Virus record (IMG/VR): IMGVR_UViG_3300009614_000107
Reading direction: 5' to 3' (one strand)
Source: a virus
Lineage: Duplodnaviria > Heunggongvirae > Uroviricota > Caudoviricetes
Length of the DNA: 64,000 nt
The notes beneath the pieces are model-generated. The model did not search any database, was not told where the DNA came from, and was given only the letters and a program-made list of their open reading frames with translations. A program made the position numbers and the translations under genes. Shown piece by piece: positions 26,605 to 42,932 of the stretch (position 1 is its first letter; the number at the start of each line of letters is the position of its first letter).

Positions 26605-28161
26605 TTAACTCTCTTCCTCTTGAACAATTTCTGGGATGGGGTTGTACTTCTCGATAGCCTCAAGTACCTTGCTCCTGTCCTCTTCGAACCTCTTTATGAA
26701 GTCGAAGATGCGGTCACTGAAGCCACCGATGATGGCAACGTTTGGCTCTGTGTCTGGAATCTGAACTGTGCCGTAGCCAGCTAGGTCGAAGAGATAGAGT
26801 CTTACCTTTGGTTGCATTGTCTTGTACTTTAGGAACCACTTATAGAGGCTGTCCTGACTTCCAAATGCACCATATCTGCCATCGGTATCCCATAGCTGTT
26901 CATCAGTGAAGATCATTACACGATCTGTGAGGAGTCTGTTGTCCACTAGGTACTTGAATACTAGATAACCATTTGTTGCAGAGTCAGTGTCTGACATCAG
27001 TATCTTCTTGGCATCTCCTAGGATTGACTTGCCTGATATGTTGACGGTCATAAACCTAGTTCCGAATGCAGAGGCAACGGCAGCTTCACAGAAGCCATTT
27101 GCCATAGCACCCATCACAGCACCAATTTCACGCCTCTCTATCTTTGATCTTTCAGATACTGGTGACTGCATTGAACCTGAGTTGTCTACAGACACAAGTG
27201 TCCTTCCACCAAGGTTAGGGATATTGCTGACTGAGATTGACATTGCGGTTTCAAGAGCATTGAGTATTTTCTTACTGTCGAATGGATCAATGTTCTCTCC
27301 TGCATCTTCGATCATCTTGTAGGCAGAGAGGAATCTATATGGGAACTGCTTGCTATTAGCAACTGCCTTTGGATTAGTCAGGTGCTTTAGGACAGAATCT
27401 AGATCTGCCTTAGCCTGTGCAATGTTTCTGAGGTTACGTAGTTTGGCCATATAGCCCATCTTAGGAATGACTTCGTTCCAGGCTTCCTTGTTGTTGCCCT
27501 TGGCTGAGATTACGGTTTCCCAAGTCTCAGGGACAGCTAGAGTGCCAGTCCTAATCTTCTTGAAGAGTTCTGACTTCTCTGGAGTGTCTGGTACAGGATG
27601 TGTTAGTCTTAGAACGTCTGAGAGCTTGACGGACTTATCATCCATCTTGTATTTTCCAAAGTCATATTCACCGAAGTTATGGAAGGAATCGGCTATGCCT
27701 AACTTGAACTGATTAGGAAGGCTTGCTTTACCATTGCTACCAATCTCACCGTTCTTGTTGATGAAGCAAGAAAGCATCTCTGAGAGTTCGTCTGCTCTCT
27801 TGATTATGAATGGCATCCACCAACGGACATACTTTTTTGCCTCTGGATTAGTAAGTCCCTCAACTGTGAGGAACATTGGGGCAGAGCGCAAGTACATCTC
27901 ATTGCGGAGATATGAGGCTAGTTTGAATATGAATTCAGGATCCTGCTTTGAAACCTGAGCAATAAGTGCCTTGATATCTTCTGTCTCGGTTGCTTTGTCA
28001 CCGTAGAATTTTGGCTCACCAACGAGCCAAGTTGCAGCACGTAGATAGAGTTCGTTCTTGGCATTTGTCTTGAATGCCACACCACCCTCATAATTTGAGG
28101 TTATGTCTGGGTGGGATTCTACCTTTTTCCCTATCGAAGGGTTTCCGTTGAATTTCGGCAT
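26605..28161 (-). CDS. rsr: Ro60/TROVE domain ribonucleoprotein with vWA domain
   Basis: NYEGGVAF, DPEFIFKLASYLR.EMYLRSAP, RADEL, KY...VKLSDVLRLTHP, TWETVIS, MGYMAKLRNLRN, QFPYRF, vWA VDNSGSM and IFTD; start moved to MPKFNG after an AGGAGA RBS. Confidence 0.92.
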   Translation of the reverse strand: MPKFNGNPSIGKKVESHPDITSNYEGGVAFKTNAKNELYLRAATWLVGEPKFYGDKATETEDIKALIAQVSKQDPEFIFKLASYLRNEMYLRSAPMFLTVEGLTNPEAKKYVRWWMPFIIKRADELSEMLSCFINKNGEIGSNGKASLPNQFKLGIADSFHNFGEYDFGKYKMDDKSVKLSDVLRLTHPVPDTPEKSELFKKIRTGTLAVPETWETVISAKGNNKEAWNEVIPKMGYMAKLRNLRNIAQAKADLDSVLKHLTNPKAVANSKQFPYRFLSAYKMIEDAGENIDPFDSKKILNALETAMSISVSNIPNLGGRTLVSVDNSGSMQSPVSERSKIERREIGAVMGAMANGFCEAAVASAFGTRFMTVNISGKSILGDAKKILMSDTDSATNGYLVFKYLVDNRLLTDRVMIFTDEQLWDTDGRYGAFGSQDSLYKWFLKYKTMQPKVRLYLFDLAGYGTVQIPDTEPNVAIIGGFSDRIFDFIKRFEEDRSKVLEAIEKYNPIPEIVQEEES

Positions 28162-28220
28162 TTTCTTGTTTCTCCTTTCTGGTCTGAAAATGTCAATTCC
28201 AATCAACCCCTTTTGGGATT

Positions 28221-28288
28221 GAAGAGGAATGAGTCGCATCGGGAATTTCGGTTTTGGTGGTGAAGTATCCCGATACTACGCCATCTTC
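28221..28288 (-). ncRNA. Y-RNA-like element Y1 (minimal; in the ro60 leader)
   Basis: GAAGA-TGGCGTA-GTATCGGGA-TACTT...TCCCGATGC-GACTCATTCC-TCTTC; TATA at 28312-28319. Confidence 0.75.
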
Positions 28289-28336
28289 GGTATCTAAAAT
28301 AACAGTGCGCCTTTATAAATATTTGTATTATAAAAT

Positions 28337-28468
28337 TAGGCAAGAATTGTCATATGGGGAACATATACTGTGCAAATCTACACTACATCTGCCTTTCGGC
28401 AGACGCTGGGAGTCCCACCCAGTCTAGTACCTCCAGAGGGAAGTATCCCACATACTACGCTATGCCTA
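28337..28468 (-). ncRNA. Y RNA Y2 (YrlA-like permuted tRNA mimic)
   Basis: Terminal stem TAGGCA/TGCCTA; TAGCGTA; T-like arm CTGGG-TGGGACT-CCCAG; acceptor-like CGTCTGCC-GAAA-GGCAGATG; then TAGTGTAG D-like arm; own TATA at 28489. Confidence 0.85.
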
Positions 28469-28511
28469 TATTACAAATACAATATGTCTTTATAAATATT
28501 TGGAGAAAAGT

Positions 28512-28634
28512 GAGAAGGGATAACCGAGTCGAGAGTGACCTTACCATCGGTCAGTCACACCCTTTCGGGTGCGATTGGATTCGAACCAATATACACATCA
28601 TTGTAGTGAAGTATCTCGACTCCACGCCATTCTC
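28512..28634 (-). ncRNA. Y RNA Y3 (YrlA-like permuted tRNA mimic)
   Basis: GAGTCGAGA/TCTCGACTC stem; T arm ATTGG-TTCGAAT-CCAAT; 7-bp CGCACCC-GAAA-GGGTGTG; D arm TGACC-GATGGTAA-GGTCA; own TATA at 28658. Confidence 0.9.
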
Positions 28635-28668
28635 TGGTTGTAAAAACACAGAACGAATTTATAAATAT

Positions 28669-29144
28669 TTAGACTTTGACGAAACTAGATTTCTTAGATC
28701 CCCTAACGTTTTGTTGTGTTTGTGCTTCTTCTCTCTTGAAATATATTCTAATATTTGAACCATTTATCACAAGACAAGCACCTTCACCGTCTAAGCAAGC
28801 AATTGTTGAGTGTGGAAGAAGCGTAGTAAAAACAGATTCAAAAGTAGCCCTATCTGTTGTTTTTAACGTGGCATTATAAACATCCACGTGTGGAAATTCT
28901 ATTCCATTAACAAGTTCTCCTTGAATGTATGTTGCGTCAATCATATTGTTTATTCCTTCTTATTGACTGGATAGGTTTTGTATCCTACCATTTTGAGCAC
29001 ATCTGGCTCTTGTATGTTAAAAAGTTTCTTTAGGAATTTAGAAACTGACTCTTCAACACCAAGAGTAAAATATAAGGGATAAACAAAAACCTTTATCAAA
29101 AAGGTATAGAAGTTATCCCATTTTTTGCTATATGAGAATGTCAT
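28669..29144 (-). other. two small hypothetical ORFs (28669..28944; 28950..29144)
   Basis: ORF track, TATA at about 29185. Confidence 0.45.
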
Positions 29145-29203
29145 ATTGATACGCCTTTCTGTTAAATTAAATATATGCTTGTATTTATAAATATTATGAG
29201 AAT

Positions 29204-29797
29204 TTAGAAGGTAAGTGGATTCCTAGCTGTATTTGACGTGCAGATAGTGAAACTTCCGTCTATGAGCTTTTGCAGGATTGTTTCCTTGTCTAGACTGTCA
29301 ACATCCATTTCCATCCAGCTTGCTCGAAGCTGATAGGGCATATGTAGATCGTCTGAGGCATAGAAGTTCATACCCTGGAACTCGTCAAGATTATTTGATA
29401 TCTGAAGGATACCAGAATTGAACATCTCAAGACCGTTAATTGTTGGGAAGTTTCTCATTAGTACATCAATACTGGCAGATGTTAGATCTGACAGTCTGGG
29501 ATGGGATATCCATTTAACTCTACAGGACTCCCATATTTCGATAGGCATTCCTGTCGTTTTTGTTGGTTCTAATCCTAGGAGATGAGTCATACCATATGCA
29601 CTGTACTCGATTCCCTTGAACAGTAGGTATTTCTTCCTAAGTCCTTTCAGGTGAAGAGGGTGGGGAATAGTTAGAGTGTCGTGATCTGTTATGGCCACAA
29701 CTTGATATTTGGTTGTTAGAAGTTTGAGTAGGCTGTGAATATCCAGCTCGCCATCACTCATATTTGAGTGATTATGTAAACTAAGTGCTATGTGCAT
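29204..29797 (-). CDS. PHP-family metal-dependent phosphoesterase
   Basis: LHNHSNMSDG, AITDHD, GIEY, SHP, ASDDLH. Confidence 0.85.
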   Translation of the reverse strand: MHIALSLHNHSNMSDGELDIHSLLKLLTTKYQVVAITDHDTLTIPHPLHLKGLRKKYLLFKGIEYSAYGMTHLLGLEPTKTTGMPIEIWESCRVKWISHPRLSDLTSASIDVLMRNFPTINGLEMFNSGILQISNNLDEFQGMNFYASDDLHMPYQLRASWMEMDVDSLDKETILQKLIDGSFTICTSNTARNPLTF

Positions 29798-29847
29798 TAT
29801 TGATCATTACCAAAACTGTTGATGTCATTTATAAATATTGTGAATAT

Positions 29848-29950
29848 AGAGAGGAATAGTCCCATCGAGAGTTAGGAGGGAGTCGCACCCTCCAGATACC
29901 CCTTTCGGAATATCTCAAGGACAGAAGTATCTCGGTAGTACGCCATCTCT
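29848..29950 (-). ncRNA. Y-RNA-like element Y4
   Basis: AGAGA-TGGCGTA-CTACCGAGA-TACTT...GAAA hairpin, T-like arm GGAGGG-TGCGACT-CCCTCC...TCTCGATGG-GACTATTCC-TCTCT; TATA at 29972. Confidence 0.8.
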
Positions 29951-30189
29951 GCATAAGGAATACATTCTGAATTTATAAATATTAACTAAGCAATAACTTC
30001 CTTCACAGTAACTATATCATAATAGTTTGGTTTCACAACCTTTTCATTTCCGTGTGCTTTTCCAATATGAATAAAAAGTTTTCCAGATAGCTTGCTTCTA
30101 CACGCAGATACCAAAAGTGGTGAACCTGTATTATTCTGAATTTCAATTTCTTCAGACATAAACATCCACAGAATAAAATATGTTTGTAT

Positions 30190-30372
30190 TTATAAATATT
30201 TGGTAAGTACCTCCATTGCCCCTCCACAACGTGGGCATCCGTTTTTAACGTTAGAGTGGGAAACTCCCCAGTGCCACTGTGGGCCTTCTCTTCCGTTCCA
30301 TCTGTACCTACGGTTCCTACCTGTCCCGTAGTCATATCTAAACACACGTGTACCGCATTTGGTACACCTCAT
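30190..30372 (-). CDS. Zn-ribbon protein
   Basis: MRCTKCG...CPRCGG; start moved to the in-frame ATG at 30372. Confidence 0.6.
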   Translation of the reverse strand: MRCTKCGTRVFRYDYGTGRNRRYRWNGREGPQWHWGVSHSNVKNGCPRCGGAMEVLTKYL

Positions 30373-30465
30373 CAATATCTGTCTGGTTTGCAACTTATGT
30401 TCACACTAGCTCATAGCCAGAATCCGTGAACTTGGGACTCTAGCTTATGAACTAGTCATTCGTTG

Positions 30466-30540
30466 CCTTCACTCCTCTTCACCATACAGCACATCACTTT
30501 ACTATACTTGACTTCACAATACTATACTCCACTATACAGC
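30466..30540. repeat. 5-nt periodic tract (ACNNN)n, 15 units
   Basis: ccttc actcc tcttc accat acagc acatc acttt actat acttg acttc acaat actat actcc actat acagc. Confidence 0.85.
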
Positions 30541-30588
30541 ATCTGTAAAGTCTACCCCATTAGAATTTATAAAGATTTGTGAGAAGTC

Positions 30589-30667
30589 GGTGTGCATAGA
30601 GAACCAATGACCTACCCAGTGAGGCGAGAGCCACCCTATGCACACCTTTTTGAGTGAACGGCTCTCG
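30589..30667 (-). ncRNA. H-type pseudoknot RNA PK1
   Basis: S1 CGAGAGCC/GGCTCTCG interleaved with S2 GGTGTGCATAG/CTATGCACACC; own TATA at 30691. Confidence 0.7.
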
Positions 30668-30700
30668 TGTAAGAAACACACGTGTGTACGTTTATAAATA

Positions 30701-30823
30701 TTATGGATTACTAGTTCCTTTCTTGAGGCTTCTTCGATAAAGCCAAATAAGGAACCAGGCTGTAACAACAGCAGAAACATAGAAGGCTAGAACAACAGCC
30801 TCATCCCAAGACAATTCTATCAC
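30701..30823 (-). CDS. 40-aa single-TM peptide (not in ORF track)
   Basis: GTG start after an AAGG element; hand translation MIELSWDEAVVLAFYVSAVVTAWFLIWLYRRSLKKGTSNP. Confidence 0.55.
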   Translation of the reverse strand: MIELSWDEAVVLAFYVSAVVTAWFLIWLYRRSLKKGTSNP

Positions 30824-30833
30824 CTTGAATCTT

Positions 30834-30935
30834 GGTACGTGAGGTGGGAACTACTTTGTCTCTCTGTCGGGGCTTACTGTCGATGGGAACGGGATTCCTC
30901 ACGTACCCTTGACGATGCCTCTGCCGTTCCCAATC
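30834..30935 (-). ncRNA. H-type pseudoknot RNA PK2
   Basis: S1 TGGGAACGG/CCGTTCCCA interleaved with S2 GGTACGTGAGG/CCTCACGTACC; own TATA at 30953. Confidence 0.7.
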
Positions 30936-31003
30936 TGTACACGGTGTACCAGTTTATAAATTTTTGGGAATAGATGGATATTTTTCTGTATAAATTAAAA
31001 ATT

Positions 31004-31087
31004 TGAAGGGAATTGTCGCAAAGCGATATTGGCTTTCGCCAATCCAATTTTCAGTCAGATGAAGTATCGCTCGGCTACGCCACTTCA
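31004..31087 (-). ncRNA. Y-RNA-like element Y5
   Basis: TGAAG-TGGCGTA-GCCGAGCGA-TACTT...ATTGGC-GAAA-GCCAAT...TCGCTTTGC-GACAATTCC-CTTCA, then a T-run; TATA at 31108. Confidence 0.8.
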
Positions 31088-31132
31088 CCACAAGAATAGA
31101 CTGTGAATTTATAAATATTTGGGTTAAAAATT

Positions 31133-31211
31133 AGAAAGGAATTGTCGAAGGGGGAAACTGGCTTTCGCCATTCCATATACAGTAGAAGTATCCCCATTCT
31201 ACGCCATTTCT
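31133..31211 (-). ncRNA. Y-RNA-like element Y6
   Basis: AGAAA-TGGCGTA-GAATGGGGA-TACTT...TGGC-GAAA-GCCA...TCCCCCTTC-GACAATTCC-TTTCT, then a T-run; TATA at 31234. Confidence 0.8.
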
Positions 31212-31243
31212 GATCCTAAGAACACAATACGAATTTATAAATG

Positions 31244-32626
31244 TTATCCAAACCAATCATCCACAGGCTCTGGAGTGACTGGAATTACGGACTCAAGTCC
31301 ATATATCAGACGCTTTCCAATATAGGTAACAACTCGTGTTGTTACAGCATTTCCACACATTTTATAACGTTGTGTGTCTGATATCCTAACTTCTTTTCCA
31401 TCAACAATGCCTGTTGCTGTCCAATTGTCTGGGAAGGCTTGTAAGCGTTCACACTCGATTGGTGTCAAGCGTCTGATTCTGCGTTCAACATCTCCAACAG
31501 CTTCAGCATCTGCGACAAGAGGTAGATGCCCACCCCCTGCTGGAGTTCGAATAGTAGGTGAGTTCTCGATAGAAACTCTTGGCTTATCTTCACCAAATCC
31601 ACCGTAGATATTGTGAAGCATAACTAAGTTGTCCTTTGCTACGCCTGTAAGGTTGTTTGAGATCTCTTTGGGTGTTTCTAAGTTTCTACCAAGTCCAGCT
31701 TTGGTTCTGGTTCTATCAGCAACTATCATTATGCCCTGTGGCTCTTGCGCTGTAAGAGTGAATGAATCTTCACCATCTTCTTTTATTCGCTCACCGTTCT
31801 GTGTTTTCTTTAATCTATTTGGAGTAAGGACAGGCTGAATGATTAAAGGATTGTTGTTACCAGCATTTGAGGCTGGGATTGTTCTAACCTCATCTTGCAT
31901 ATGATATTGTTTCTTTACGTTTGGCTCTTTAGGGTTGGTTGAGGATATTGCCTTGACTTCATCTGATGCTATGACGGTTCTCTGAGCGTGATTGTCTACT
32001 CCTTTGAAGTAGTTTCCATCGATAGCGTGTGCGACTTCTCCCCATTCTTCAAGTTGTCCAATAGCCGTTTCACCGATGTCGATGAAAGGAAATACTGCTC
32101 TGGAACTTCCTTTTCCAAGATGTCCGACAATGAAGATCCTTTCACGGTTTTGGGGAACACCGAACCACTTAGTATTGAGAACTTGCCATTCGCATCTGTA
32201 TCCGATATGCCCCAATTCTTCCAAGATAATTCTAAAGGTATGTCCCTTATCGTGGTTGAGGAGTCCTTTGACATTTTCCAGAAGGAGTAACTGGGGTCGA
32301 TGATGTTCTGCAATTCTGACAATTTCCCGAAATAGAGTTCCACGTATGTCGTCAAATCCTTCCCTTCTACCAGCGACACTAAATGCTTGGCAAGGAAATC
32401 CACCACAGAGAAGATCGTGCTGTGGAACTTCTTCAGGAGATACGGTTCTGATATCTCTTGTATCGACTGTGGTTTCTGGGAATCTTGCTCTGTAGACGGA
32501 AGAGGCATACTTGTCCCACTCGTTTGCCCAGACACATTTGAAGGAACTGCTTGCTTGAGTGAGTCCGTAATGAAATCCTCCAATTCCTCCGAAGAGGTCA
32601 ATGAACCTGACTTCTTTGATTTGCAT
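31244..32626 (-). CDS. DNA cytosine-5 methyltransferase with extended multi-module variable region
   Basis: IDLFGGIGGF, GGFPCQAFS, LLLENVKGL, QNRERIFIV, RRLTPIECERLQAFPD, RYKMCGNAV. Confidence 0.93.
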   Translation of the reverse strand: MQIKEVRFIDLFGGIGGFHYGLTQASSSFKCVWANEWDKYASSVYRARFPETTVDTRDIRTVSPEEVPQHDLLCGGFPCQAFSVAGRREGFDDIRGTLFREIVRIAEHHRPQLLLLENVKGLLNHDKGHTFRIILEELGHIGYRCEWQVLNTKWFGVPQNRERIFIVGHLGKGSSRAVFPFIDIGETAIGQLEEWGEVAHAIDGNYFKGVDNHAQRTVIASDEVKAISSTNPKEPNVKKQYHMQDEVRTIPASNAGNNNPLIIQPVLTPNRLKKTQNGERIKEDGEDSFTLTAQEPQGIMIVADRTRTKAGLGRNLETPKEISNNLTGVAKDNLVMLHNIYGGFGEDKPRVSIENSPTIRTPAGGGHLPLVADAEAVGDVERRIRRLTPIECERLQAFPDNWTATGIVDGKEVRISDTQRYKMCGNAVTTRVVTYIGKRLIYGLESVIPVTPEPVDDWFG

Positions 32627-41489: not shown

Positions 41490-42932
41490 TTACAACTCCT
41501 TGGCTCTCTTGAGAAGATATTCTCTGGTGTTCTTCTCAGGATCCTCAATGACTTCTTCTGCTAGAGTTTTGAGGACTCTTCCGACTTCTGGTCCTCTGAA
41601 GCCAAGTTCCATTATATCACCGCCACGGATTTTGAGTGAATGCACACCTGTTGGTTCCTTCTTGGCTCGAACTTCTTTGAGTGCTTCATTGAACTCTTTA
41701 CCAAATACTCTTGTTCTAGGAGTTCCTGAACCCTTAATATCAGCTATGTTGAAGGCAACCAGATCGTCAACAAGTTCTTTGTTACCAAGTCTGTTGATGT
41801 ATCGTCTGACATCTTTTGGTTTTATCTTCTTTGAATAGGAGAAGAAATCCATATGGTGTCCTACCATCTCCTTGAGGTATTCCTTCTCAGGTGTCGAGAG
41901 TTTGAGGTTATTTGCTATTTCCTCTGCACGTTTCTCTCCGAGCTCTGCGTGTTCTTGGCTTGGCTTCTCAATATCGTGTATGAGTCCAACAAGTCTGAGG
42001 ATTGGACGTTCCTTTGGAAGTGCTTCCATTGTTTTAATGCTGTGAGTGAGCACATCGTATTTGTGGTATTTCTTTTCCTGTGGCATACCGTCAAGTCTGG
42101 TGAGTCCTGGGATTACTGTTTCCATAAGCCCAGTGTCAACCATCATTCTGACTGATTTTCCAGCTCCGTCTGTTTCAAGTGATTTGAGTAGTTCGTCACG
42201 AACTCTCTCTGCTGGAATTTTGGTAAGCAGTTTGTTTTCATCTTTGATTGCCTGAACTGTCCTTGGATCAGGCTTTGCTCCAAATCGACCAGCGAATCTC
42301 ACAAAGCGCATCATACGGAGTGGATCTTCTCTGAAGCGTTTGTGTGGATCACCTACAGCACGAAGGACGTTATTCTGGATATCCTTCTGGCCACCGAATG
42401 GGTCAATGAATTTATCGTGAATTGGATCGTAGGCTATGGCGTTTATTGTAAAGTCTCTTCTTGAGAGGTCTTTCACGACATCTGTTTCCCATTTAACTGA
42501 GCCTGGGTGTCGAGAATCTTCATACTTGCCTTCTGAGCGATATGTGGTTATCTCTATTGGAGAACCATTGAAGAGGACTGTAATTGTTCCAAACTCTTCT
42601 CCAGTGGGAATTGCTTTATATCCCTTGCTCTGAAAAAGTTTAGTTACCTCTGATGGGGTAGCATTTGTGGTTATGTCTACATCGTGAATGGGATTGCCCA
42701 TTATGAAATCTCTGGTAGCCCCACCGACAACATAACCTTCATATCCAGCATCGTGGAGAATCTGTATTACATCTCTTCCTATGAGCATTTCGGCTGGTAG
42801 ACGGGAGGTGAAGTATTTTGGTATGGTGGCGAGAGGTCGCCTTGTCTCAGTGCCTCTAACGTAGGAATGTACTCGAATACGGTTTCCATTTGGAGTTGTC
42901 CTAACGTGGGATGAGACACGGTGCTTCAGCAC
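41490..42932 (-). CDS. cca: class II CCA tRNA nucleotidyltransferase with HD domain and N-terminal HxVxxHxR tag
   Basis: YVVGGATRD, DVDITT, DLSRRDFTINAIA, EDPLRMMR, ERVRDEL, H...IHDIEKP. Confidence 0.92.
   Translation of the reverse strand: MLKHRVSSHVRTTPNGNRIRVHSYVRGTETRRPLATIPKYFTSRLPAEMLIGRDVIQILHDAGYEGYVVGGATRDFIMGNPIHDVDITTNATPSEVTKLFQSKGYKAIPTGEEFGTITVLFNGSPIEITTYRSEGKYEDSRHPGSVKWETDVVKDLSRRDFTINAIAYDPIHDKFIDPFGGQKDIQNNVLRAVGDPHKRFREDPLRMMRFVRFAGRFGAKPDPRTVQAIKDENKLLTKIPAERVRDELLKSLETDGAGKSVRMMVDTGLMETVIPGLTRLDGMPQEKKYHKYDVLTHSIKTMEALPKERPILRLVGLIHDIEKPSQEHAELGEKRAEEIANNLKLSTPEKEYLKEMVGHHMDFFSYSKKIKPKDVRRYINRLGNKELVDDLVAFNIADIKGSGTPRTRVFGKEFNEALKEVRAKKEPTGVHSLKIRGGDIMELGFRGPEVGRVLKTLAEEVIEDPEKNTREYLLKRAKEL

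What the first reader, a model, noticed from the sequence alone, without database searches (positions are those of the whole stretch)
28221..31211. Six individually promoted Y-RNA-like genes beside an archaeal-element Ro60, graded from full tRNA mimic to minimal hairpin
Seen: six minus-strand units (28221-28288, 28337-28468, 28512-28634, 29848-29950, 31004-31087, 31133-31211), each about 22-30 nt after its own TTTATAAA. All share one layout: 5-6-bp terminal stem, TGGCGTA (variants TAGCGTA, TGGCGTG), about 9-bp stem ending GA, TACTT, a variable module, the complementary strand, GAC(A/T)N(N)TTCC-like (GGTTATCCC in Y3), terminal stem. The stems differ in sequence but still pair (covariation). Y2 and Y3 carry T-arm, GAAA-capped acceptor stem, D-arm in that order. 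Y4 has a GAAA hairpin then a T-like arm, Y5 and Y6 only a GAAA hairpin, and Y1 nothing. Established: Ro60/Rsr binds Y RNAs, and bacterial YrlA RNAs lie next to rsr with this permuted tRNA-like domain. From memory, the YrlA 5'-strand motif is GNCGAAN0-1G, close to the GGCGUAG here. Inference: one Ro60 uses a panel of interchangeable Y RNAs, with a constant Ro-binding handle and variable effector ends, to tether different partners or act as decoys. I know of no described archaeal or archaeal-virus Y RNA panel like this.
Basis: partly seen in the sequence, partly recalled or inferred. Interest (0 to 1): 0.95.

Follow-up and report, generated by a model that had tools for sequence, protein, structure and literature searches.

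The report
Six Y RNAs beside archaeal-virus Ro60
A large virus-like DNA element of a peat archaeon carries a Ro60 protein gene preceded by six small RNA genes that belong to the known bacterial and phage Y RNA (YrlA/YrlB) family, so the pairing is ordinary but its archaeal setting, with a promoter for each RNA, is a modest extension.

Summary
All six minus-strand units exist at the stated coordinates and share one bulged stem ("handle"). Each starts 20-23 nt after a TTTATAAA box. A covariance model built from four units recovers the other two and nothing else in the 64-kb window.

The same model finds more than 350 same-strand sites beside Ro60 genes in bacteria, phages and archaeal element contigs. 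Covariation is strong: 91% of cells paired against 42-56% in slid controls. In five whole bacterial genomes, all six hits lie beside a Ro60 gene.

Rfam's YrlA model gives sub-threshold hits on family members, including one in an archaeal-element relative, but none in this window. Y3 is a true circularly permuted tRNA mimic. Y2 and Y4 are degenerate mimics. Y1, Y5 and Y6 are short, YrlB-like forms.

Mixed panels of 2-8 units are common elsewhere, so the "graded panel" is a property of the family. The scan has already noted Ro60/Y-like RNA modules on many other genomes, including another archaeal virus.

Verdict: new members of a known kind (YrlA/YrlB-type Y RNAs). What I found described nowhere is the archaeal-element context with one TATA promoter per RNA. 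Y1 is the exception, because it shares its promoter with ro60. Ro60 binding and expression are inferred, not shown.

The parts
26605..28161 (-). ro60 gene (518 aa; TROVE + Ro60-type vWA domains). The real start is the ATG at 28161, behind a GGAGA; the mechanically listed ORF start at 28239 lies inside Y1.
   Evidence: Pfam TROVE 2e-30 and vWA_Ro60 1.5e-6. The best solved homolog is Thermus phage phiLo Ro60, 9KOP/9L5Y, E 9e-31.
28221..28288 (-). Y1: handle plus a roughly 22-nt loop with no effector module. It lies 59 nt upstream of the ro60 ATG with no TATA box or T5 run between, so it is probably the 5' leader of the ro60 transcript.
   Evidence: R1 54.4 bits, E 6e-14, although not used to build the model. 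Fold z -2.8. Flanks.
28312..28319 (-). TATA box (TTTATAAA) serving Y1 and, by inference, ro60.
   Evidence: 23 nt to the first base of Y1.
28337..28468 (-). Y2: handle (AG...CU variant, with one extra base in the stem) plus three hairpins in T-like / GAAA-capped / third-hairpin order. It is a degenerate tRNA mimic.
   Evidence: R1 38.1 bits, E 5e-9, although not used to build the model. Fold z -3.75. The permuted form was not called a tRNA by ARAGORN. TATA box at 28489-28496, 20 nt upstream.
28512..28634 (-). Y3: handle plus a full circularly permuted tRNA-like domain (V region, T-arm GGUUCGAAUCC, 8-bp GAAA-capped acceptor-like stem, D-arm with GG).
   Evidence: Fold z -4.2. Weak Rfam tRNA match of 18.4 bits. 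After permutation at the GAAA loop, with the handle replaced by an artificial loop, ARAGORN calls a cloverleaf. TATA box at 28658-28665, 23 nt upstream.
29848..29950 (-). Y4: handle plus a GAAA-capped 9-bp hairpin and a 6-bp hairpin with the 7-nt loop UGCGACU. No T-run follows; the next promoter abuts it.
   Evidence: TATA box at 29972-29979, 21 nt upstream.
31004..31087 (-). Y5: handle plus one GAAA-capped hairpin (short, YrlB-like). A T5 run starts 2 nt after the 3' end.
   Evidence: TATA box at 31108-31115, 20 nt upstream.
31133..31211 (-). Y6: handle plus one GAAA-capped hairpin (short, YrlB-like). A T5 run starts 2 nt after the 3' end.
   Evidence: TATA box at 31234-31241, 22 nt upstream.
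29204..29797 (-). PHP-domain phosphoesterase-like gene lying among the Y RNA genes (context only; weak match).
   Evidence: Pfam PHP, E 0.0031, below the curated cut-off.

Best explanation
The six units are genes for Y RNAs of the bacterial/phage YrlA/YrlB type, carried with their partner protein Ro60 by a roughly 197-kb archaeal virus-like element.

Each RNA pairs its 5' and 3' ends into a conserved bulged stem: 5 bp, U, G-N, C, G-U, A, G, a 9-bp stem, then UACUUC. This stem is the inferred Ro60-binding handle. At the far end each RNA carries a variable module:
- a full permuted tRNA mimic in Y3;
- degenerate mimics in Y2 and Y4;
- a single GAAA hairpin in Y5 and Y6;
- nothing in Y1.

Y2-Y6 are each transcribed from their own archaeal TATA promoter. 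Y1 is transcribed with ro60 as its leader.

By analogy with Deinococcus, Salmonella and Thermus phage phiLo, the RNAs would gate Ro60 and tether it to partner enzymes. Here that would be part of the element's tRNA/RNA repair kit: two RNA ligases, a CCA enzyme, an HD phosphoesterase and 16 tRNA genes by Rfam (14 by ARAGORN).

Shown here: the anatomy, the paralogy, covariation of the handle, strict genetic linkage to Ro60 genes, and the tRNA-like fold of Y3. Inferred: transcription, Ro60 binding and partner tethering.
For: - Model R1, built from Y3-Y6, recovers Y1, Y2 and a unit 46 nt upstream of a 63%-identical Ro60 gene. An exhaustive search of the window finds nothing else.
- R1 finds 134 sites in metagenome Ro60 loci and 54 in IMG/VR loci at E <= 1, and 165 sites in GTDB genome loci at E <= 0.01. 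All but one are on the Ro60 strand and most lie beside the Ro60 gene.
- In five whole bacterial genomes, all 6 hits lie within about 1.5 kb of a Ro60 gene, including a second paralog.
- Covariation is strong. In 43 units, 91.3% of cells are paired against 45-52% in slid controls, and 238 cells change on both sides against 29-48. In 110 bacterial units the figures are 91.2% against 42-56%, and 540 against 59-106.
- The N of GNCG covaries with the 3' strand (GG/CC, AG/CU, GC/GC, GU/AC).
- G-U pairs make the signal strand-specific, which points to RNA rather than DNA.
- Rfam YrlA (RF02553) overlaps family members below its threshold: Fibrisoma limi at 32 bits, archaeal-element relative L245 at 33 bits and Gordonia phage Rabbitrun at 31.5 bits.
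- Y3 permuted at its GAAA loop is called a tRNA by ARAGORN. Its V-T-AS-D layout matches Chen et al. 2014.
- The closest solved homolog of the protein, phiLo Ro60, binds two Y-like RNAs encoded upstream of its gene through a CGAA motif (PMC12135203).
- Relatives with 51-58% identical Ro60 proteins sit among MCM, TFIIB and XPF genes. Each has a unit upstream of the Ro60 gene on its strand, 42-51 nt upstream in L243 and L244 and about 240 nt upstream in L245.
Against: - Rfam YrlA and Y_RNA give no match to the six units even at E <= 10.
- The 5' motif is GGCGUAG, not the published GNCGAA(N)G. In phiLo Yrl2, the A-to-U change at that position lowered affinity about four-fold.
- There is no expression or binding evidence for this element.
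- Archaea lack PNPase, so the best-known Y RNA effector cannot be the partner here.
Confidence: 0.85

Rival explanations
1. The tRNA-like units (Y3, perhaps Y2) are circularly permuted pre-tRNA genes. Archaeal splicing endonuclease and ligase would process them into functional tRNAs, so they would not act as Ro60 partners.
For: Permuted Y3 is called a cloverleaf by ARAGORN. Permuted tRNA genes exist in algae and one archaeon, and Wang et al. raised this possibility for YrlA. The element carries RNA ligases and a CCA enzyme.
Against: The handle has no bulge-helix-bulge motif (3-nt bulges separated by 4 bp). Its bulges are U, C against a 4-nt loop, and A opposite G. Four of the six units have no tRNA-like domain yet share the same handle. 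The handle, not the tRNA part, is the conserved and covarying element across about 150 units.
Confidence: 0.03
2. The units are structured RNAs that act without Ro60, for example as decoys for host tRNA-targeting nucleases or as partners of another neighbouring protein. In that case the adjacency to ro60 reflects only a shared RNA-repair neighbourhood.
For: No binding data exist for this element. The units lie among other genes (a PHP-like gene and small ORFs) and near tRNA and RNA-repair genes. An earlier scan note reports a tRNA-mimic RNA with a non-Ro60 partner on other DNA.
Against: Across several hundred loci, the one constant neighbour is the Ro60 gene, on the same strand and usually within 1.5 kb. 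Whole-genome searches place all hits beside Ro60 genes. Homologous phage and bacterial RNAs are bound by Ro60 experimentally (PMC4201824, PMC12135203).
Confidence: 0.08
3. Y1 alone is mainly a cis-acting leader through which Ro60 controls its own mRNA, rather than a free Y RNA.
For: There is no TATA box and no T5 run between Y1 and the ro60 ATG. In at least six relatives shown here, one unit lies 42-62 nt upstream of the Ro60 start (L002, L247, L243, L244, L083, L095). Y1 has no effector module.
Against: Bacterial Y RNAs are also co-transcribed with rsr and then processed (rsr-yrlBA-rtcBA), so co-transcription does not show regulation. This reading is compatible with the main explanation rather than opposed to it.
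Confidence: 0.3
4. The repeats act at the DNA level, as protein-binding sites or recombination sites.
For: They are dispersed direct repeats close to promoters.
Against: Compensatory changes preserve RNA pairing, with many G-U pairs that would be C-A mismatches on the other strand. The antisense strand scores 9 bits or less, and primary sequence in the stems is not conserved.
Confidence: 0.01

Closest known systems
Bacterial YrlA and YrlB Y RNAs with Rsr/Ro60 (Salmonella, Mycobacterium smegmatis and more than 250 species; Chen et al. 2014, PMC4201824; Rfam RF02553)
   Same: - Encoded within 4 kb of Ro60 on the same strand.
- The 5' and 3' ends pair into a stem carrying a GNCG(A/U)AG motif.
- A conserved YUAY-like element (UACUUC) opens the variable region.
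- One RNA (Y3) carries V, T, acceptor-like and D elements in the permuted order.
- Shorter partners lack the tRNA domain, as YrlB does.
   Different: - The motif is CGUA rather than CGAA.
- The genes lie upstream of ro60, and each has an archaeal TATA promoter instead of being processed from an operon.
- There are six copies.
- The host is archaeal.
- The Rfam model does not score them.
Thermus phage phiLo Ro60 with Yrl1 and Yrl2 (PMC12135203; PDB 9KOP, 9L5Y)
   Same: It is a viral Ro60 and the best solved homolog of this protein (E 9e-31). Its Y-like RNA genes lie upstream of the Ro60 gene, and their stem-bulge-stem carries the CGAA-type motif needed for binding.
   Different: It has two RNAs rather than six, and no tRNA-like module is reported. 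It recruits host PNPase, which archaea lack. It is a bacterial virus.
Deinococcus radiodurans Yrn1-Rsr-PNPase (RYPER) complex
   Same: A Y RNA acts as a tether, with one end on Ro60 and the other on an effector. It has a T-arm-like element.
   Different: It is a different Y RNA lineage and has a different module order. The effector, PNPase, is absent from archaea.
Vertebrate Y RNAs (hY1, hY3, hY4, hY5)
   Same: They form a small panel of paralogous RNAs, each with its own promoter. They share a Ro60-binding bulged terminal stem and differ in their loops.
   Different: They are Pol III genes with no tRNA mimicry. No Rfam Y_RNA match is found here, and they are not homologous at the sequence level.

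Membership tests
YrlA/YrlB-type Y RNAs (Chen et al. 2014) | Encoded within 4 kb of a Ro60 ortholog on the same DNA strand | tested here: met
   The units lie 59 nt to 3.05 kb upstream of ro60, all on the minus strand.
YrlA/YrlB-type Y RNAs (Chen et al. 2014) | 5' motif GNCGAAN0-1G | tested here: inconclusive
   The units read GGCGUAG (Y1, Y4-Y6), AGCGUAG (Y2) and GGCGUGG (Y3), one base away from the published motif. The same CGUA form is in 109 of 110 bacterial units. It is also in the Fibrisoma unit that Rfam YrlA hits. The Gordonia phage has both GCGUAG and GCGAAG forms.
YrlA/YrlB-type Y RNAs (Chen et al. 2014) | Stem formed by pairing of the 5' and 3' ends | tested here: met
   The handle has 18 pairs with 91% of cells paired and strong compensatory change.
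YrlA/YrlB-type Y RNAs (Chen et al. 2014) | At least one RNA per genome with a tRNA-like domain in the order (V) - T - acceptor-like stem - D | tested here: met
   Y3 meets this: canonical T-loop and D-loop sequences, and ARAGORN calls the permuted form a tRNA. Y2 has the topology only.
YrlA/YrlB-type Y RNAs (Chen et al. 2014) | Conserved YUAY at the start of the V region | tested here: inconclusive
   The window has AUAC within the invariant UACUUC, and many relatives have UUAC. The position matches; the first base does not match in the window.
Rfam RF02553 YrlA | Score at or above the gathering threshold (69 bits) | tested here: not met
   There is no match in the window at gathering or at E <= 10. 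Relatives reach only 31-33 bits. This bears on the Rfam model, which even a Bacteroidota YrlA fails, and not on the mechanism.
Y RNA in general | Bound by Ro60 in vivo or in vitro | not testable with these tools
   This needs EMSA or co-immunoprecipitation. Homologs are bound experimentally (PMC4201824, PMC12135203).
Ro60/Rsr protein | TROVE (HEAT-repeat ring) domain plus a Ro60-type vWA domain | tested here: met
   Pfam PF05731, 2e-30, and PF25045, 1.5e-6. PDB homologs are 9KOP/9L5Y, 2NVO and 1YVP.
Metazoan Y_RNA (Rfam RF00019) | Match to the covariance model | tested here: not met
   No match at E <= 10.

The most novel reading that the evidence does not exclude
An archaeal virus uses one Ro60 with a six-member Y RNA panel whose different modules direct it to different partners: host tRNA enzymes or the exosome, or the element's own ligases and CCA enzyme. 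This would be an RNA-repair or counter-defence device. The handle in the ro60 leader would set protein output to match RNA supply. It would be the first Y RNA system working in archaeal cells.
Probability: 0.25. Interest if true: 0.6.

Novelty: new member of a known kind. Interest (0 to 1): 0.4.

Why it matters
It extends the Ro60/Y RNA particle, so far studied in animals, bacteria and phages, to mobile elements of archaea, where the usual bacterial effector PNPase is absent. This gives a concrete set of six RNAs and one protein to test.

The handle-only covariance model also finds the short YrlB-like partners that Chen et al. said escaped their bioinformatic search. It shows that mixed arrays of tRNA-like and short Y RNAs are the rule beside Ro60 genes.

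The finding does not reveal a new kind of system.

Tried and rejected
- Rfam at gathering and at E <= 10 on 28000-31400 gave no YrlA or Y_RNA match, only chance-level snoRNA and CRISPR-DR matches and an 18-bit tRNA match in Y3.
- A single-protein scan of IMG/VR found no close relative. The alignment-based scans worked.
- No whole genome is held for the window, so the rest of the 197-kb element could not be searched for more units.
- Sequencing runs: ten DNA holders, peat and wetland metagenomes, were listed. No RNA holder was listed for the 3.2-kb stretch or for Y1-Y3.
- The supplement of Chen et al. 2014 and the 2020 Annual Review (PMC10870794) are not held. Published YrlA coordinates could not be compared directly.
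- P0002's contig (83% identical Ro60) gave no DNA.
- A permuted Y2 construct was not called a tRNA by ARAGORN. My construct was approximate, so this only says that Y2 is not a canonical mimic.
- MAFFT alignment of all six units mis-registered Y1 and Y2. I therefore used the four that aligned cleanly and let the model align the rest.
- Complex prediction was not used, because it does not take RNA.
- Rejected readings: DNA-level repeat, CRISPR repeat, and kink-turn (no tandem G-A pairs in the handle).
Full report
**Observation**

The minus strand between 28221 and 31211 carries six units at the coordinates given. Each begins 20-23 nt after the last base of a TTTATAAA box. That octamer occurs 38 times in the window against 3.3 expected, and it is the element's standard TATA promoter.

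All six fold into the same design:
- a 5-bp terminal stem;
- a bulged U;
- two pairs (GG:CC, or AG:CU in Y2);
- an internal loop of C against 4-5 nt;
- two pairs (GU:AC, or wobble pairs in Y3);
- an A or G opposite G;
- a 9-bp stem ending GA:UC;
- the hexamer UACUUC and a variable insert.

I built covariance model R1 from Y3-Y6 only, giving it just these 18 pairs. It recovered Y1 (E 6e-14) and Y2 (E 5e-9). In an exhaustive search without filters, the six score 38-100 bits and the next best site in 64 kb scores 11.8 bits. The antisense strands of the units score 9 bits or less. Among the six, 105 of 108 cells are standard pairs and 14 of 18 pairs use at least two pair types.

**The neighbouring gene**

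The ORF at 26605-28161 encodes a 518-aa protein with TROVE and Ro60-type vWA domains. Its best solved homolog is the Ro60 of Thermus phage phiLo (9KOP/9L5Y, E 9e-31), ahead of Deinococcus Rsr and Xenopus Ro60. The mechanically listed start at 28239 lies inside Y1. The plausible start is the ATG at 28161, behind a GGAGA.

**Family and linkage**

Homologs of this Ro60 are numerous in metagenomes. I collected 240 Ro60 loci from species genomes, metagenomes and IMG/VR. I also fetched contigs for some close homologs. R1 found the following:
- 134 sites in the metagenome loci and 54 in the viral loci, both at E <= 1;
- 165 sites in the genome loci at E <= 0.01, mostly Bacteroidota.

All but one of these sites are on the Ro60 strand, and most lie directly upstream or downstream of the Ro60 gene. 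Every close relative whose upstream DNA could be read has a unit on the Ro60 strand ahead of the gene. In L002, L247, L243 and L244 it lies 42-62 nt upstream, and in L245 about 240 nt upstream. L245 also has a divergent second unit with a full tRNA-like domain.

In five whole bacterial genomes of 4.6-7.6 Mb, all six R1 hits lie within about 1.5 kb of a Ro60 gene. The one apparently remote hit sits beside a second Ro60 paralog. One caveat applies: the first-look filter scored only 150 candidates per genome.

**Covariation**

Two alignments were counted. The controls are the same alignments with every 3' partner slid by 1-3 columns.

| Alignment | Units | Cells paired | Slid controls | Cells changed on both sides | Slid controls |
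|---|---|---|---|---|---|
| A5 (archaeal-element-like and viral loci) | 43 | 91.3% | 45-52% | 238 | 29-48 |
| A6 (bacterial genomes) | 110 | 91.2% | 42-56% | 540 | 59-106 |

These alignments were fitted to the model, which favours the structure, but the margin is large. The variable base of the GNCG motif covaries with the 3' strand: GG with CC, AG with CU, GC with GC, and GU with AC. Frequent G-U pairs make the signal specific to the transcribed strand. This is an RNA structure, not a DNA repeat.

**Relation to published Y RNAs**

Chen et al. 2014 define YrlA by four features (PMC4201824):
- proximity to Ro60 on the same strand;
- a 5' GNCGAAN0-1G motif;
- a conserved YUAY that opens the V region;
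- V, T, acceptor-like and D elements in that order.

The family consensus here is U-G-N-C-G-U-A-G ... (A/U)UACUUC. That is one base away from the published motif, and the YUAY-like element is in the right place.

Rfam holds YrlA (RF02553), but its model is narrow. It gives no match in the window. Elsewhere it gives only sub-threshold matches:
- 32 bits on a Fibrisoma limi unit that carries the same GCCGUAG...GGUUACUUC handle;
- 33 bits on the tRNA-like unit of archaeal-element relative L245;
- 31.5 bits in Gordonia phage Rabbitrun, where R1 finds flanking units with both GCGUAG and GCGAAG.

These overlaps link the window's units to the published family through intermediates. I therefore file them as members of the YrlA/YrlB kind. 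I note that the Rfam threshold test fails and the motif test is met only approximately.

**The modules**

- Y3 has a canonical T-arm, an 8-bp GAAA-capped stem and a D-arm with GG. Cut at the GAAA loop, with the handle replaced by an artificial 7-nt loop, it is called a cloverleaf tRNA by ARAGORN. The anticodon in that call is my insert and means nothing.
- Y2 has the same three-hairpin order, but its loops are not canonical, and ARAGORN did not call the permuted form.
- Y2 and Y4 share a hairpin with the loop UGNGACU.
- Y5 and Y6 keep only a GAAA-capped hairpin.
- Y1 has none.

This grading is not special to the window. Among 153 family units, a T-loop-like sequence occurs in 65 of 92 units of 90 nt or more and in 2 of 61 shorter ones. 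Of the 46 loci with two or more units, 29 mix both types. At looser thresholds, some bacterial or phage loci carry 7-8 units.

**What is particular to the archaeal setting**

The element is archaeal in character:
- TATA promoters;
- 16 tRNA genes by Rfam and 14 by ARAGORN, two of them with introns;
- relatives with 51-58% identical Ro60 proteins that sit among MCM, TFIIB and XPF genes.

Earlier scan notes describe the element as a roughly 197-kb virus-like replicon of a peat archaeon with its own TFB. I did not re-test that.

A TATA-like box 24-36 nt upstream precedes 22 of 43 units in the archaeal-element/viral set, but only 3 of 110 bacterial units. One promoter per RNA therefore looks like the archaeal way of expressing a family that bacteria transcribe in operons. 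Y1 is the exception. No TATA box and no T5 run separate it from the ro60 start 59 nt downstream, and this arrangement is conserved in relatives. Y1 is probably the leader of the ro60 transcript, either processed out or used for feedback. That is inference.

**Mechanism**

By homology, the handle binds the outer face of the Ro60 ring and the distal module recruits or mimics something else. Three experimental systems support this by analogy:
- In Deinococcus and Salmonella, the partner is PNPase.
- In phage phiLo, two upstream Y-like RNAs bind the phage Ro60 through the CGAA motif and form a complex with host PNPase.
- YrlA is handled by tRNA enzymes.

Here the surrounding genes point to an RNA repair or tRNA maintenance role during infection. 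They include two RNA ligases, a class II CCA-adding enzyme, an HD protein and the tRNA array. Archaea lack PNPase, so the partner must differ. I cannot test which partner it is.

UACUUC is the most invariant element of all, conserved in 108-110 of 110 bacterial units at each position. It is kept even in units with no tRNA-like module, so it probably belongs to the protein-binding part and not to the mimic.

**Novelty and score**

Phage Ro60 with Y RNAs has been known since 2014 and was studied structurally in 2025. Ro60 genes have been noted in haloarchaeal virus HGTV-1, Asgard Nidhogg viruses and Borgs, but without Y RNAs. I found no paper in the library that describes archaeal Y RNAs.

This scan has itself noted Ro60/Y-like RNA modules on many other genomes, including an archaeal virus. 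The finding is real and well supported. It is a new member of a known kind, not a new kind of system. I score interest at 0.4.

Noticed in passing
L248 4846-4931 (Halogranum tailed virus 1, NC_021328): A weak R1 match (13 bits, E 0.05) containing GGAUACUUC lies in the 133-nt gap directly upstream of the TROVE gene gp239 of this cultured haloarchaeal virus. An RtcB ligase gene lies 4 kb away. It is a possible Y-like RNA in an isolate that could be tested at the bench.
   Followed up: partly
L249 2403-2515 and 2635-2798 (Gordonia phage Rabbitrun, NC_060133): At least three Y-like units lie upstream of the phage Ro60 gene: R1 matches at 2403-2515 and 2818-2894, and an Rfam YrlA match at 2635-2798. 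The unit at 2403-2515 lies inside the annotated hypothetical CDS gp093, and the YrlA match covers most of gp094, so these CDSs are probably mis-called.
   Followed up: partly
L245 7500-7637 minus strand: ARAGORN calls a tRNA-Asn here, but the stretch is the tRNA-like domain of a YrlA-type unit with a full handle. Permuted mimics can therefore be mis-annotated as tRNAs.
   Followed up: partly
L123 9690-15210: A 195-kb metagenome contig has more than 40 tRNA genes downstream of its Ro60 gene, with about seven Y-like units interspersed among them.
   Followed up: no
L250 3080-4597 and 5860-5967 (genome G001, complete Chitinophagaceae chromosome): This genome has two Ro60 paralogs about 4 Mb apart, each followed by its own Y-like units.
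   Followed up: partly
window 30573-30953 minus strand: Two further promoter-driven, GC-richer non-coding stretches lie between Y4 and Y5. R1 does not recognise them, so they are not Y-like. Another first-stage note reads them as pseudoknots.
   Followed up: no
window 29848-29835: Y4 has no T-run after it, and the TATA box of the PHP-like gene follows 12 nt after its 3' end. How Y4 transcription ends is unclear.
   Followed up: no
window 41490-42932: The element's CCA-adding enzyme has the class II (bacterial/eukaryal PolyA_pol head) type, like its bacterial-type Y RNAs and Ro60. This suggests that a block of RNA-handling genes was acquired from the bacterial or phage world.
   Followed up: no
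contigs of close Ro60 homologs (L002, L247, L083, L084, L087): Several metagenome contigs end within a few hundred bases upstream of the Ro60 gene. Repeated Y units and promoters may be breaking the assemblies there.
   Followed up: no
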